A program made the translations under genes and the position numbers. This document shows positions 10,590 to 55,037 of a DNA stretch of 64,000 bases, in pieces; positions within the stretch are counted from its first letter, which is position 1; each line of letters begins with the position of its first letter. The notes under the pieces are model-generated. The model was given only the letters and a program-made list of their open reading frames with translations. It was not told the DNA's origin and made no database searches. This stretch comes from Eledone cirrhosa (Eukaryota), in assembly GCA_964016885.1 (NCBI GenBank), contig OZ024741.1:165602001-165666000 (forward strand). Direction: 5' to 3'.

Positions 10590-11023
10590 TATATACATAT
10601 ACATATATATATATATATATATGTATATACATATATATATATATATATATACATATATATACATATATATACATATATATATATACATATATATATACAT
10701 ATATATATATACATATATATATATAGAGAATTAATACATCTACCAACATATGCGTACAAATGTACACTAATACTAGTAAATATATAAGTTATGTCAAAGT
10801 ACCTAGGTGGTTCAATGGCTCTTGTCATAATACCACCCCACTCCTAACTGACTAACCTCAGTGTCACGTGATTGATGCTTTAGAATCCACCACTGACCAG
10901 AGGCAGTGAACTTTTTCAGTGCTATGAAATTTAGTCCCCGCTAGCTTATTACATCCACTGAATTATTATTTTTATATGGGTTCCTAGTGTCCGCGCATTG
11001 CCTGGGAACTTAGCTGAGAATAG

Positions 11024-11105
11024 ACTACCTGATGACGTAATGAATTCTCGATAGTTACATTGTGTAACTATATTTATCCCATTACAGAAACTAATTAGTT
11101 GGAGT
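11024..11105 (+). ncRNA. Type I hammerhead ribozyme-like motif
   Basis: ACTAC-CTGATGA-long stem II (GTAATG/CATTAC, ATAGTTACA/TGTAACTAT)-GAAA-CTAATTAG-TT^GGAGT. Confidence 0.6.
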
Positions 11106-11898
11106 GAAAATTTTAGTAAGTAAGTTAATTTTTAATTTTTAAAATTTTCTTATTTTACGTCTTTCATATATATATATATATGTATATACCTATATGTATA
11201 TACATATATATACATATATATATATATACATATATATACATATATATATATACATATATATATGTACATATATATACATGGTATGACATTGTGGTTTTAG
11301 CTCAATATAGGATAACTAGTATACTACAGAGCCGTTATAATTTTAGGAATAACCACCAAAGAGTGCTTAGAAATACATTATTTCATTAGCTAACAGTGTT
11401 TAATCAAGCTGCATCACCAGAACCAGGTTAAAAGACCAGCAGGGGGTACCGAGGCCAGCGCTATATAGAAAAAGACACAATGCATGACGCACATAATGTC
11501 ATAAAATGTCATAAAAAATTTCATCAATAATTTATCACATAAATGGTGCAATAGATGATAAGGAGGTTGGGAGAGGGTAGCAAGGAGTGAGTGAAGGTGT
11601 TACTCAGCATGATCAAAAACAATAAAAAAAACAATAAAAAAATCAATAAAAAAAACAATAAAAAATCAATAAAAAAAATCAATTAAAAAAACAAAAAAAA
11701 ACAAAAAAAAAGCAAAACATAGATACATCAAAGCACAAGCAGTGCAAATACAGGATGTACAGGCAGATTAAGAGAGTTTGCAAGCATGAGTCTGTGAGAA
11801 GAATAGTTGGTTAGCGCTGGTGCAGCTTTACATATATAACCATGTTCTGGTGACGCAGCTTGATGGAGCATGCAACTATTGATATACTCTTGTTTATA

Positions 11899-11945
11899 GG
11901 CTCTGATGATTCCTGCCATAGGGTATGGATGAAACATTGTTAGCT
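11899..11945 (+). ncRNA. Type I hammerhead ribozyme-like motif
   Basis: GGCT-CTGATGA-T-TCC TGCC ATAG GGTA T GGA-T-GAAA-CATTG-TT^AGCT, followed by AATAAA. Confidence 0.6.
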
Positions 11946-12754
11946 AATAAACCAATGTATTTCTAAGCACTCTTTGGTTATTTTTAAAATTATATATATA
12001 CATATATATGTATATAATATATATGTATATATATGTATATAATATATATGTATATAGTATACATATATATGTATATATAATTCAAAGGGATATATGTATA
12101 TAATTAGTCACAGATACATATATGAGTTTGGCTACCTTTCACGGAGTGGCTCAATGAAGAATTAATGAAGCAAATAATCATTAATCAGAGCTATATATAA
12201 AATTGCAAGTTTGAAGAATTATTAGTCTGTATAAATCAACCACATAAATAATCATTTAAACGAGGCTATAAGTTTAAAATGTAACTATGAAGAAATAATA
12301 GACAAATGATACAGATTATCTTCCGCGATGTACAGCCATATGACACTTATCTAATTATTTCTTTTAGCCTGTAGAAATTGACTAGACAAATAATCAACTA
12401 CACGGAGTTAGGTATAAAATAGAAGTTTGAAGAAAAAATGCATATGTATATATATATGATGGGTTAGTGCAGCTATCTCCCAAATTCCAACCATATGGCA
12501 TTAGTCAACTCAAGGCTATAGTAGAAGACACTTGCCCGAAGTGCCATACTATGGGACTGAACCTAAAACCATGAGGTTGTGAACCAAACTCCTTAACTAC
12601 ACAATCATGTGTAGTTTTAGACAATATTGATTCTGAGCCCCTGGTGTTAGTAAATTTATTGTTATTCATTAAACAACAGCTTGAAAACTCCTTAGTGGAA
12701 TGGTTAGCACACCATTGCTATTCTATGATTAAATGGTTAGTGGGTACCAAACGA

Positions 12755-50841: not shown

Positions 50842-51197
50842 CTGAGAAACATATTCATCATACATACTATATATGTTATGATTCTTTAAATTAGTATATA
50901 TATATAAAACAATGTGTGCGTGTGTGTGTGTGTGCATTGAACAATGAAAATAAAACAAAAGTTGAAGATAGGGTGCTAATTAGCTCATTATTTTATGATA
51001 GTTTCAGCGGGTTGATTGATCATAGTGGATCAATATATCAACTAGCAGGTAATGGTTATGTCGCTTCCTGTTTCTAGTCTCAAAACCCCTGATCTTTTGC
51101 ATCGTCTTCTGCTGAAACCATCTCTTCAAGACCACATTGAGGTCTAACAACGTTATTGGCCCACCATAAACAGGTGGAAACCTATATATATATATAT

Positions 51198-51584
51198 GGA
51201 GGCACATGGCTTAGTGGTTAGAGCATTGGCCTTGCAATCGAAAAGTTGAGAGTTCAATTCTCAGACCGGGTGATGTGTTGTTTCCTTGAGCAAGATACTT
51301 TGTTTCACATTGCTCCTGTTTACTCAGCTGTAGAAATGAGAGGGACGCCAGTCCCTATCATTCCACTGCAAAGTGGTCGTGGAGGTCCCACGGCAAAAAT
51401 TCACCCAGACCACACTGTAAAGTGGACGTGTAGGTGCCACAGAAAAAAAAGCACCCAGCACTCACTGTCAATGAGGTTGGTGTTAGGAAGGGCATCCAGC
51501 TGTAGAAATCAAGCCAGAATCAGTTCCCGTCCCACCCTTGCAAGCAGGGAAAAGCGGACGTAAAATGATGATGATGATGATGAT
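51198..51584 (+). mobile_element. Full RTE-tailed CORE SINE
   Basis: Same head, CORE and tail as 6419-6766, with an extra internal repeat unit. Confidence 0.85.
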
Positions 51585-54500
51585 ATATATAACAAAATAA
51601 GGCTTTCAAATGTTTATTTGTAAACATACCATATATCACAAGATATACAAAATACACATACTTATATGTAAACAGCTATATTAAAGTGAACATCTTAATT
51701 CTTTTTTCAGGTCGAGCTGGCCGACAGCTCCATATGTAAATGAAGCTAATCAGCCCATGTACATAGGCATCGAAACTAAATGTTTTCGCCTATATTGAGC
51801 TCCAGCAGAGAGAAGGGTAGGGGAGCACTGTCTTGATAATGACTAGAGTCAGAAACGATGATTGTCAACAGTTACCTGCCCCTGTTTCTGCTGGTTTTCT
51901 AGATGGCTTTATGTCCATCAGCATCAAAAATTCAAAGCTAAAGGCTTTCAAATGTATATTCATAAACATACTGTGTATCGCTATATATACAATATACACA
52001 TATATATTTATATATTTAAGAAAATGTGTTGTCTATTACAAAGGCCACTACAATACACATAAACTGTAATTTAGTTGAATAAAATGGGGGATAAACCCCC
52101 TTCAGAGAGAAAAATATATAATTAGTGTTTTAGAAACATGAGGAAAATGCACTCAATACTAAAATAGAGAATATTATATATTATTTTCTGTTACTACTTT
52201 GAGTCTTGAAGATTCCTATTGATCACATGTATGTATACCATATATAACACAAGTTAATCAAGTCATAAATGTATAGATATGTACAGTATATGTAGTACAT
52301 ATATACACACATACATTGCAAGTTAGTCAAGTTACAAAATCAATATGCTCAGTAAACAGCAATTATAATTACAAACAGTATGGTGTTGATATAATTAATA
52401 AAATCAATACACCTCCACATCCCATTTCTATCCATAGTAATAATAATAATTTCTCAGACCAGTACAAGACCAGAGATTTATTTGTAAAGGAAGACCTATA
52501 TATAATTGGATCAGAACACAACTACTACTTCTTGTTTTGTATGAAAAGCAAAGTTAATCTAGGTAGGATCTGAACTCAGAACATAGGAAACCAGACCTAA
52601 AACTGTAAAGTATTTACTATTTCAGCCATTCCAATTATTTAATAATAATAGTTTCTAATTTAAGCACAAGGTCAATAATTTTAGTGGGGGGAAAAGTTGA
52701 TTAAATTGACCCCAGTGTATTGTTCTTTATTTTATCGAGCCCAAAAGGATGAAAGGCAAAGCTAACCTCGGCGGGATTTGAACTCAGAGCATAAAAGGAA
52801 CATAACACTATGCCACAAAGCAGGTAGCCCAATGCCCTACCGATATTGCCAACCCAACAATTCTTTAATAGTAAGAGTAATATATTTTTTTTAATATATG
52901 ATATTTTATTCAACAAATTTCAATTAAATTAGGTTTACAATAAGAAAAATGAAATAACGAAAGTTAGAGGAAGAGGGGAAGTTGTGGCAGACTGAACACC
53001 CCAGTATGGACAACAGAACTCAGCTCTGCTCTGTGAAGAAAATAGTAAAAGCATTGCTGCAGAGAACAGCCAGTGACATCCACTGCATCAGCCACTTCAA
53101 CTCCAAGGACTCATTTATCAGGCAATGCACTCCTCCAAATTTTGTGATGGAAAATAGCAGTTCGGAGATTGAGCACACCTGAGGCCTTGACAGTGACCAG
53201 CATATAAAGGAAGCAATCAGTCAAGTCCTGGTTTTTAGAAATGTAATAGTAATAATTGTTTCTTTATTATTGCCTGAATGGTGATGAATTCAGAGAATAT
53301 TACAGGGACAGAATACAACAATGTGGGTTCACATAGAAATCAGATGTAAGAAAACTAAATTGTGATGGTATACATAGTTTGAAGGCAGTGGATTGGCAGT
53401 CATTAGAACATCAGATAGAATGCTTTGGGGTATTTGTATGTATGCATGCATCCATAACTCTTGGTAGAGTCACAGGGGTGCTGTAGTGACATGCAGCATT
53501 TTTCAGGCATTTAAAACTTGGTAGAACCCATCACACACCAAGTTCAAATCCTGCCAATGTTAACTTTGTCTTTCATCATTTTGAGTTCAATAAATCAAGT
53601 ACCAGTCAAATATTGGTGTCAATTCTTCTTCTATATCTTTCTCACTTCTTCTCTTTCACTCCTTCTCCTTCTTGGGAAGAAATCTGCTGTCTTTAGACTT
53701 GGTGCGAGATGGGTTCCACCAGGTTTAAAATGACTGAAAAATGCTGCATATCACTACAGCACCCTGTGACTCTACCAAGAGTTACAGTTGCATAAATGTA
53801 TGCATACATGATGGCTGCAAACTCTTCTAAGAGTATTGCAATTGCTTGTCAGATTATAGAGTTTGGTGCACTTTTAGGCTACCACCAGCCACACGAACCT
53901 GTAACATATCCTGAACAAGCAATGCCTGTGCTTTGAAGGTTTTTTAAGTGAGGAAAGGCCTTGCACTCAACCAATCCCACTCTCTGAGCATCGAAAACAC
54001 TACCCGAAAAGGAGAATTGGTCAACATCATCAGATGTTTCTGAAGCCGCGGGTTTTTTCAGAGTTTCCTCCTAGAAAGGTGTTGTGACAACATCTGGGGG
54101 CCTTTCACTCCCATATATACATATATACATACATACATACATACATACATATATACATTATTACATGCATACATACACAATCACATGTACACACACATAC
54201 ATGAATACATATATACACTTTATATTGTATGACATAATCCCCAGAGAGAACAACCACCCCTAGTACTAATCATAGAATACCACATATCCAGGATTACCCA
54301 GACTAACAAGGGCATGTGCCCTCACTCAGCTGTGCTCCCTGGCCCACAGGTGCATGCTGAGAGTAGGCTCATTTATATACCATCCAGCAAATTCACTGAA
54401 GGGCAACATTTCCATCACCATCCTACCATTCTCTCTAAGTAGAATTTGAAACAGGGTATGGCTGAAGATGAACATTTCTGTCATCAGGCTTTTCAATCTT

Positions 54501-55037
54501 ATTCATCATACAATTACTCCCACCATAGCAACCAGATAAAATAAAACTGCCAGCACTTCCTAGCTAAAGGAAGGTGGTGGAGCCATCCTTGCAGTGAACA
54601 GCTAGATCTGACCTACATGCAACAACAGCTATGTGATATAACTTTGCAAATCAATGCAGAATAAGTGCATTCAGAACTGTTTTGCTGCCTTGAGCATAAC
54701 ATGGACAGACCTGGATGATGGTGTTACCATGCCTTTAAAGTTTATATTATACTAGCAATGACCCCACAGAAGCACTGAGAGATCAGGGATTGGTAGGTTG
54801 TCTATAGTCTCAAAGTGTGTGTGTATGTACATACACACATACACTTATATATATATGTTAGTCCCAGGTTCAATCAGAGGTAACCACAGTTAGTAAGGTA
54901 CTCAGTAGAGTGTAAACATCAAGTTTAATAATATAGAAATAACTTCTGCAGGACTAGAAATGTTTCATTCAAAAGAAATCATCAGGAAAGTCCTTGAAAC
55001 AGTTCTAGTTCTGTAGAAGCCATATATATATATATAA

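What the first reader, a model, noticed from the sequence alone, without database searches (positions are those of the whole stretch)
10726..55022. Dispersed non-coding elements carrying hammerhead ribozyme cores (Penelope/retrozyme-like), mostly in TA microsatellites
Seen: at least seven loci, mostly unrelated in primary sequence, contain CUGAUGA(-like)-stem II-GAAA-short stem III-NUH (11024, 11899, 14393 minus, 33351, 44234/44515, 50102, ~54945 minus). Several also form an inverted repeat with a one-sided tail containing GAGT(G/A)C (14582, 22362 minus, 29560, 44602), and most are bounded by TA runs. Established: Penelope-like element pseudo-LTRs carry minimal type I hammerheads with palindromic stem III, often insert as inverted pLTR pairs, and some clades associate with microsatellites. 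Inference: these are multiple non-autonomous or truncated PLE-derived ribozyme families at high density. No PLE RT/GIY-YIG ORF is visible in the window.
Basis: partly seen in the sequence, partly recalled or inferred. Interest (0 to 1): 0.78.

Follow-up and report, generated by a model that had tools for sequence, protein, structure and literature searches.

The report
Penelope transposon ends with hammerhead ribozymes
The scattered motifs are broken-off ends of several Penelope-type jumping genes that carry predicted self-cutting hammerhead RNAs, a known arrangement, but one abundant family keeps the hammerhead shape with two altered core letters and so likely cuts poorly or not at all.

Summary
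Confirmed and largely known. A strict type I hammerhead descriptor finds 4 motifs in the window against 0.02 in shuffles; the other listed motifs are decayed copies of families whose genomic copies mostly keep the core. Every locus belongs to a repeat family (120 to 5,723 candidates each). Two (33115-33530, 22320-22645) are 5'-truncated ends of coding Penelope-like elements (RT plus GIY-YIG-type endonuclease). Two (10726-11165, 50040-50316) are ORF-less head-to-tail monomers of about 535 and 440 nt, retrozyme-like. Three families have no parent found; 29433-29613 has no hammerhead core.

The addition: full copies of the 22320-22645 family, a 4.86-kb element with Hydra-clade motifs, keep all three helices, GAAA and the palindromic stem III but read CCGUCGA (U4C plus A6U): 784 pattern matches, 0 of the first 100 with A6. 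An older sister family (1,102 matches) reads CCGACGA. 12 of 26 families close stem II with a mismatch. No cleavage or expression was tested; covariation within families is weak. The scan earlier noted a Penelope hammerhead with the known U3-A8 core in another genome (e1-7786987).

The parts
10726..11165 (+). E1: copy of a 531-535-nt ORF-less tandem monomer; inverted piece 10726-10817, sense piece 10817-11165; hammerhead core 11029-11035, 51-nt stem II closed by C.A, GAAA 11087-11090, perfect palindrome 11090-11099, predicted cut after 11100; TA runs on both sides
   Evidence: (2,179 candidates, best copies 97-99%)
11280..11990 (+). E2: inverted arm with tail 11280-11836, sense arm 11837-11990; core 11903-11909, stem II closed by U.U, GAAA 11931-11934; family extends at least 1.1 kb upstream, no parent ORF found
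   Evidence: (2,280 candidates)
14372..14625 (-). E3: old inverted pair; minus arm with core 14455-14449, decayed stem II, palindrome ACAATTGT; plus arm with a decayed second half near 14507 and tail motif at 14581
   Evidence: (120 candidates, 66-86%)
22320..22645 (-). E4: 5'-truncated, inverted end with one-sided tail (22320-22420, motif at 22371) of a 4.86-kb coding Penelope-like element with Hydra-clade motifs; the window copy starts inside stem II and lacks the core; full copies read CCGUCGA
   Evidence: (3,259 candidates)
29433..29613 (+). E5: fold-back hairpin with one-sided tail (motif at 29560) between TA runs; no hammerhead core found in any copy
   Evidence: (2,534 candidates)
33115..33530 (+). 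E6: 3' end of a coding Penelope-like element, with short inverted tail piece 33115-33165; core 33355-33361 (CTAAAGA here, CTGAAGA in the family), extra base then G-C closed stem II
   Evidence: (1,911 candidates)
44220..44645 (+). E7: inverted pair of one family; minus arm core 44276 (passes the descriptor), plus arm core 44523 (decayed stem II); U.U closes a 3-bp stem II; tail motif 44602; ends in a CA run; shared sequence stops about 430 nt from the 3' end
   Evidence: (5,723 candidates)
50040..50316 (+). E8: copy of a 403-444-nt ORF-less head-to-tail monomer; core 50109-50115, stem II closed by A.A, palindromic stem III with G.U
   Evidence: (3,953 candidates)
54860..55022 (-). E9: decayed copy of the E7 family; core 54985, cleavage triplet changed; short inverted piece at 54997-55022
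62612..62810 (-).

Best explanation
These loci are truncated, often inverted 3' ends of at least eight repeat families, two of them joined elsewhere in the genome to Penelope-like RT-endonuclease ORFs and two built as ORF-less tandem monomers, and their hammerhead motifs are predicted to cut multimeric transcripts weakly as dimers. Inferred cycle: a tandem copy is transcribed; the palindromic stem III of two motifs pairs between copies; the element's protein nicks TA-rich DNA and starts reverse transcription at one of two fixed internal sites (giving the one-sided tail); early stop or fold-back gives the short, inverted copies seen here. The ORF-less monomers likely borrow this protein. In family E4 the fold is kept but the core reads CCGUCGA, so cleavage is likely much reduced and likely not needed for its spread.
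For: Motif excess over shuffles: 4 vs 0.02; 280 distinct motifs in 1.66 Mb of loci vs 2, 2, 0. 26 families with different stems around the same core, including U3-A8 in 4. E6: 20 of 26 anchored copies have a same-strand match to the RT-endonuclease C-terminus upstream, 14 ending 227-229 nt before the anchor (two copies were fetched twice, one is the source of the query). E4: ORF ends 1.9-2.2 kb upstream of the core in L316, L317, L319, L321 and 3.1 kb in L320; in L316 the tail runs into the next ORF, period 4,856 nt. E1: a full 531-535-nt unit in 11 of 25 loci, with tandem and inverted pieces and two fixed end points 120 nt apart. E8: periods 403-444 nt in 5 distinct loci. Genome holds 10,597 GIY-YIG candidates and long RT+GIY-YIG ORFs. 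Two-strand folding gives the dimer with intermolecular stems I and III for E4 and E1. Inverted arm, tail and TA bias are described for these elements in PMC8557442; tail equals the span between two RT start sites, and ribozyme mutants still insert in vitro, in PMC11167929.
Against: No cleavage, RNA end or expression data. Single-strand folds of 10 motifs give z from -2.0 to +1.4, and only some minimum-energy folds show the hammerhead helices; two-strand folds of E2, E7, E8, E10 and one sister copy are partly or wholly other duplexes. Covariation inside families is thin: 1 of 11 pairs with a double change in 42 E7-like copies, chosen by a pattern that favours the motif; 2 of 17 pairs in 7 E4/sister rows, 67 of 500 shuffles as high. 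No parent ORF for E2, E7 (20 loci each, 5.6-5.8 kb upstream) or E3 (1.6 kb only). Pfam finds nothing in the E4 parent or the E6 parent fragment; BLASTP of the E4 RT to a Neptune-like protein gives only E=0.004. 8 of 9 Xenopus retrozyme dimers did not cleave in vitro.
Confidence: 0.88

Rival explanations
1. The hammerhead motifs are passengers: the elements spread without cleavage, and the folds are inherited from older ancestors and are slowly decaying, with E4 simply the family that has lost the core most recently.
For: E4 spread with U4C plus A6U; ribozyme mutants do not affect insertion in vitro and no RNA-seq reads end at the cut site in Anolis; Naiads lack canonical hammerheads yet proliferate; weak folding and covariation statistics.
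Against: 23 of 26 families keep a canonical or U3-A8 core across unrelated stems, which is hard to explain without selection during transposition; C3-G8, G5, A9, GAAA and the UH site are all kept in E4.
Confidence: 0.3
2. The E4 core is an active variant that cuts under special conditions (element protein, Mn2+), as shown for A6C and U4C singly.
For: U4C keeps enough activity for viroid infectivity and A6C has low activity (PMC3088659); A6C cuts well in Mn2+ (PMC7151607); the Anolis ribozyme cuts only with protein; U4C is the majority in the sister family and in two other families.
Against: Two substitutions together, in a minimal motif that is already slow; no A6U hammerhead data found (one search gave one paper, about twister).
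Confidence: 0.3
3. E5, E7 and similar short inverted elements are MITE-like DNA transposons or SINEs unrelated to Penelope-like elements.
For: E5 is a near-perfect hairpin flanked by TA with no core; no parent ORF for E7.
Against: The hairpin centre of E5 differs from copy to copy and a tail stands on one side only, as expected of 5' inversion, not of terminal inverted repeats; E5, E7, E3 and E4 share the tail motif; E7 has a hammerhead and variable 5' truncation.
Confidence: 0.1
4. The motifs are chance matches in AT-rich repeat DNA.
For: No Rfam hammerhead row; four of the listed motifs fail the strict descriptor.
Against: 4 vs 0.02 and 280 vs 0-2 against shuffles; fixed position at element 3' ends.
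Confidence: 0.01

Closest known systems
Minimal type I hammerheads in pseudo-LTRs of Penelope-like elements (Cervera and De la Pena 2014, PMC4209133)
   Same: CUGANGA/GAAA core, short stem I, palindromic stem III, many families per genome, mostly single truncated copies, close inverted pairs, U3-A8 variant
   Different: That consensus has an extra base after A9 and a conserved G10.1-C11.1 pair; here 12 of 26 families close stem II with U.U (7), C.A (2), A.G (2) or A.A (1); U.U is in print (PMC3088659), the others I did not find; 3 families carry C4 and one of them also U6
Hydra clade of Penelope-like elements (Craig et al. 2021, PMC8557442), for the parent of E4
   Same: RWR for RWK, DKT, CxCX5C linker, CxxC and CxH near the end, C-terminal endonuclease, insertion in TA runs, inverted copies with one-sided tail
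   Different: 4.86 kb against generally under 3 kb; the paper calls canonical hammerheads universal in the clade, whereas E4 reads CCGUCGA; no tree was built
Non-LTR retrozymes of animals (PMC7229834; bioRxiv 10.64898/2026.07.22.740005), for E1 and E8
   Same: ORF-less head-to-tail monomers with one type I hammerhead per unit, thought to depend on Penelope-like elements
   Different: Units are longer (about 440 and 535 nt against about 300), arrays seen are short and often inverted, the hammerheads are of the minimal kind, circular RNA not shown
Natural core variants U4C (viroid) and A6C (phage Bcep176) (PMC3088659, PMC7151607)
   Same: Same two positions altered, activity lowered but not lost when single
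   Different: E4 has both positions changed, with U at 6, fixed in a family of at least 784 core-bearing copies

Membership tests
Penelope-like pLTR minimal hammerhead | CUGANGA and GAAA core with UH site in type I order | tested here: met
   E1 40/40, E2 30/31, E3 10/16, E6 24/29, E7 18/33, E8 23/25 copies; not met for E4 (variant) and E5 (none)
Penelope-like pLTR minimal hammerhead | Short palindromic stem III that allows a dimer | tested here: met
   Perfect or G.U palindromes in E1, E3, E4, E8; partial in E2, E7; E6 has a 2-bp stem with a non-palindromic loop
Penelope-like pLTR minimal hammerhead | Extra base after A9 and G10.1-C11.1 pair | tested here: not met
   Met in E6 only; E1 C.A, E2 and E7 U.U, E8 A.A; 12 of 26 families mismatched
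Penelope-like pLTR minimal hammerhead | Lies in the terminal repeat of an RT plus GIY-YIG ORF | tested here: met
   E6 and E4; not found for E2, E7, E3; E1 and E8 have no ORF
Penelope-like pLTR minimal hammerhead | Self-cleavage at UH | not testable with these tools
   bench assay needed
Penelope-like insertion structure | 5' truncation, partial tandems, adjacent inverted copy, tail on one side, microsatellite target | tested here: met
   features as in PMC8557442
Hydra clade (parent of E4) | RWK, DKT and CxCX5C motifs, C-terminal endonuclease, TA targets | tested here: met
   RWR, DKT (L316), CNCKKRAEC (L317) read from translations against section 11 of PMC8557442; by eye, no profile hit
Hydra clade (parent of E4) | Canonical hammerhead; length generally under 3 kb | tested here: not met
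   CCGUCGA core; period 4,856 nt
Hydra clade (parent of E4) | Placement in the clade by RT phylogeny | not tested
   no reference Hydra sequences were fetched
Non-LTR retrozyme (E1, E8) | ORF-less tandem units, each with a type I hammerhead | tested here: met
   E1 unit 531-535 nt; E8 period 403-444 nt
Non-LTR retrozyme (E1, E8) | Canonical helix sizes with loop 1-loop 2 contacts | tested here: inconclusive
   Motifs look minimal (4-5 bp stem I, mismatch at 10.1-11.1); tertiary contacts were not modelled
Non-LTR retrozyme (E1, E8) | Accumulation of monomeric linear and circular RNA | not testable with these tools

The most novel reading that the evidence does not exclude
A young, coding Penelope-like family of Hydra type spread to many hundreds of copies with a hammerhead whose core has stepped from CUGANGA through CCGACGA to CCGUCGA while all three helices, GAAA and the dimer palindrome were kept: a natural non-cutting (or protein- or metal-gated) hammerhead scaffold retained for a structural role, which with its sister and canonical families in the same genome forms a ready-made series to settle what hammerheads do for Penelope-like elements.
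Probability: 0.33. Interest if true: 0.65.

Novelty: new variant of a known kind. Interest (0 to 1): 0.42.

Why it matters
What hammerheads do in Penelope-like elements is open: PMC8557442 calls their function unclear, and PMC11167929 found cleavage unnecessary in vitro. A successful coding family with a doubly altered core, beside a singly altered sister and canonical families, gives natural alleles for a direct test. Practically, standard descriptors and Rfam miss these motifs: nearly half of the families close stem II with a mismatch, so hammerhead counts in such genomes are likely underestimates. The general finding (many Penelope ends with hammerheads in TA runs) is ordinary.

Tried and rejected
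Rfam scan: no hammerhead row; the rows are microsatellite matches to miRNA models. The repeat finder was swamped by TA runs. E5 as a hammerhead: copies extending past the hairpin centre were sought among all loci and by a genome pattern (88 matches, 30 fetched); they were inverted copies or ended in unrelated flank, none with a core. E4 as lacking any hammerhead: my first reading, dropped when folding showed a long G-C closed stem II ending at GAAA. E4 as non-autonomous: dropped, its 3' UTR is about 2 kb and lay beyond my first 1.6-kb look; the same caution applies to E2, E3, E7. A canonical subfamily within the E4 sister: 10 of 100 listed read CTGATGA (hand count) but the one fetched is heavily CpG-decayed, so not claimed. 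First pair count on the E7 alignment had one pair misplaced; redone. Alignment A2 held a truncated and an unrelated row and was not used; A3 replaced it. Sequencing runs: no RNA holder listed; no reads were laid, so expression is open. Lunse et al. 2017 is not held; it may describe small variants relevant here. Supplement File S2 of PMC8557442 (hammerhead lists) and the bioRxiv supplements were not seen (one search held File S1 only) and may bear on the novelty of the mismatches and of the E4 core.
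Full report
Setting. The window is G000:C2:165602001-165666000 of a 3.0-Gb genome, AT-rich, full of TA runs and LINE fragments. I name the loci E1 to E10 as in the parts list.

Observation. All listed cores are present within a few bases. A strict type I descriptor passes 4 motifs in the window (11029+, 11903+, 44276-, 62799-) against a mean of 0.02 in 200 local dinucleotide shuffles; allowing one core mismatch adds 33355+ (5 against 0.5 in 40 shuffles). 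The other listed motifs (14455-, 44523+, 50109+, 54985-) fail through single-copy decay. Rfam shows no hammerhead row in the 150 of 153 rows listed, which fits minimal motifs with long or mismatched stem II. The tail motif and the TA flanks are as described. Fifteen Penelope-like protein pieces from this genome match nothing in the window.

Families. Each locus is a repeat: first-look candidates were 2,179 (E1), 2,280 (E2), 120 (E3), 3,259 (E4), 2,534 (E5), 1,911 (E6), 5,723 (E7 with E9), 3,953 (E8); only 40 were scored per search and these are not copy numbers. Among the best-scoring copies the core reads CUGANGA in 40 of 40, 30 of 31, 10 of 16, 24 of 29, 18 of 33 and 23 of 25 for E1, E2, E3, E6, E7, E8. 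Over 385 fetched loci (1.66 Mb) a widened descriptor gave 280 distinct motifs against 2, 2 and 0 in three shuffles; 26 clusters were seen in two or more loci, 19 were singletons (the earlier canonical-plus-U3-A8 run gave 253 against 0, 1, 2). About 114 motifs belong to families I had not searched for, about 4 per 64 kb, so the window is not unusual among TA-rich places of this genome (biased sample).

Link to coding elements. The genome has 10,597 GIY-YIG candidates, 150 scored, and long frames with RVT_1 and GIY-YIG hits in 4 of 6 proteins scanned. E6: 20 of 26 anchored copies have a same-strand match to one RT-endonuclease C-terminus upstream, 14 ending 227-229 nt before the anchor (two copies fetched twice, one the query's source). 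That fragment has no Pfam hit itself; a relative of it matches a Neptune-like protein at E=2e-12 and it shows a CX4CxxC linker and YIG motif by eye. E4: in 5 of 20 loci examined the endonuclease C-terminus lies upstream on the same strand, 1.9-2.2 kb in four and 3.1 kb in one; L316 holds two cores 4,856 nt apart and the tail runs into the next ORF. The window copy matches that end at 89-91%. The protein shows RWR, DKT, YRDD and CxCX5C, the marks of the Hydra clade in PMC8557442 section 11; Pfam gives no hit, BLASTP to a Neptune-like protein E=0.004, and no tree was built. E1: a complete 531-535-nt unit without ORF in 11 of 25 loci, in tandem and inverted arrangements with two fixed ends 120 nt apart. 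E8: head-to-tail periods of 403-444 nt in 5 distinct loci. E2 and E7: no shared ORF within 5.6-5.8 kb upstream in 20 loci each; E7 homology stops about 430 nt from its end, E2 runs at least 1.1 kb. E3 was checked only to 1.6 kb. E5 has no core.

The E4 core. Full E4 copies show stem I (4 bp), a 7-nt core, a long stem II closed by G-C, GAAA, a palindromic stem III and a UC site; two-strand folding returns the hammerhead dimer. The core reads CCGUCGA. A genome pattern that leaves the seven core letters free has 784 exact matches (control 0); of the first 100 listed, all on one contig, 79 read CCGTCGA, 98 have T and 2 have C at position 6, none A (hand count). A sister family, found in flanks, has 1,102 matches; of the first 100, 35 read CCGACGA, 94 have A at 6, none T, 78 have C at 4, and most other changes look like CpG decay (hand count). 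E4 is thus less decayed, hence likely younger, and the order U4C then A6U is inferred. Stem II differs between the two by two double-sided changes, which is not significant on 7 rows. In print, U4C lowers activity but permits viroid infectivity and A6C gives low activity (PMC3088659), rescued by Mn2+ (PMC7151607). I found no report of A6U or of the double change in a hammerhead (searches; the one A6U paper concerns twister), nor of hammerheads in cephalopod repeat annotations; Lunse et al. 2017 and File S2 of PMC8557442 could not be read.

First pair of stem II. 12 of 26 families start stem II with a mismatch: U.U 7, C.A 2, A.G 2, A.A 1. U.U is known; PMC4209133 gives G10.1-C11.1 as highly conserved. 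The mismatch also occurs in a coding family.

Against. Nothing here shows cleavage or transcription. Single-strand folds are unremarkable (z -2.0 to +1.4); several two-strand folds are not the hammerhead dimer. In 42 E7-like copies 94.6% of cells pair but only 1 of 11 pairs has a double change, and the rows were picked by a motif pattern. The stronger support is across families: unrelated stems around one core.

Mechanism. Shown: repeat families, 5' truncation, inversion, one-sided tails, TA-side insertion, joined ORFs for E4 and E6, tandem ORF-less units for E1 and E8, core sequences. From the literature: dimer cleavage at low rate (PMC4209133), AT-rich nicking and internal RT start that makes the tail, ribozyme dispensable in vitro (PMC11167929), retrozymes as dependants of these elements (bioRxiv 10.64898/2026.07.22.740005; PMC7229834). 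Inferred: that these families work so, that E1 and E8 borrow a Penelope-like protein, that E4 cuts poorly.

Papers seen: PMC4209133 parts 1-2 of 4; PMC11167929 parts 1-2 of 4; the bioRxiv preprint parts 1 and 3 of 5; PMC8557442 passages, section 11 and a search of File S1; PMC3088659 passages and section 8; passages of PMC6765202, PMC7229834, PMC7151607, PMC13282606, PMC11662667. An earlier scan note (e1-7786987) reports a U3-A8 Penelope hammerhead in another genome; I had found that core here. No notes exist for this genome.

Verdict. Real, and mostly a new set of members of a known kind; the doubly altered core of E4 makes it a new variant. Interest 0.42.

Noticed in passing
   Followed up: partly
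L136:4809-7622(-), L141, L145, L149, L120: Neptune-like coding family (938-aa frame with RVT_1 and GIY-YIG hits) whose hammerhead, about 0.9-1.07 kb after the ORF, has the U3-A8 core.
   Followed up: yes
L139, L140, L135, L148: Coding family whose hammerhead, about 380-416 nt after the ORF, closes stem II with U.U, showing the mismatch is not confined to non-coding elements.
   Followed up: yes
L008:1366, L042, L069, L136, L299: Further families with a C4 core (CCGAAGA or CCGACGA) and a mismatched first pair of stem II.
   Followed up: partly
window 14581, 22371, 29560, 44602, 62680; loci: Tail motif T(T/C)GAGT(A/G)C lies downstream of the cut site in at least 40% of copies in 5 of 26 families and upstream in none; about 45-60 nt from the 3' end in the window copies; a candidate protein-binding mark.
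   Followed up: partly
window 29433-29613: E5 is a very short element, about 130 nt plus its inverted copy, nearly always folded back at one place; what defines its 5' end is unexplained.
   Followed up: partly
window 2404-5526 (-) and 7110-10226 (+): Two long open endonuclease-RT frames of LINE type (RTE-like by recall, no family scan run); fragments of the same kind at 25674-27404, 30710-31520, 33844-36800.
   Followed up: no
window 36900-38409 (-), 47627-48955 (+), 28352-29181: A second LINE-type RT frame (CR1-like by recall), a protease-RT fragment (Gypsy-like by recall) and a transposase fragment (mariner-like by recall).
   Followed up: no
window 46684-46767: Perfect inverted repeat of about 25 nt on both sides of a TA run; perhaps the tip of another inverted insertion.
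   Followed up: no
window 13300, 13526, 19740, 39134, 42962: Dispersed SINE-like repeat family of about 200 nt.
   Followed up: no
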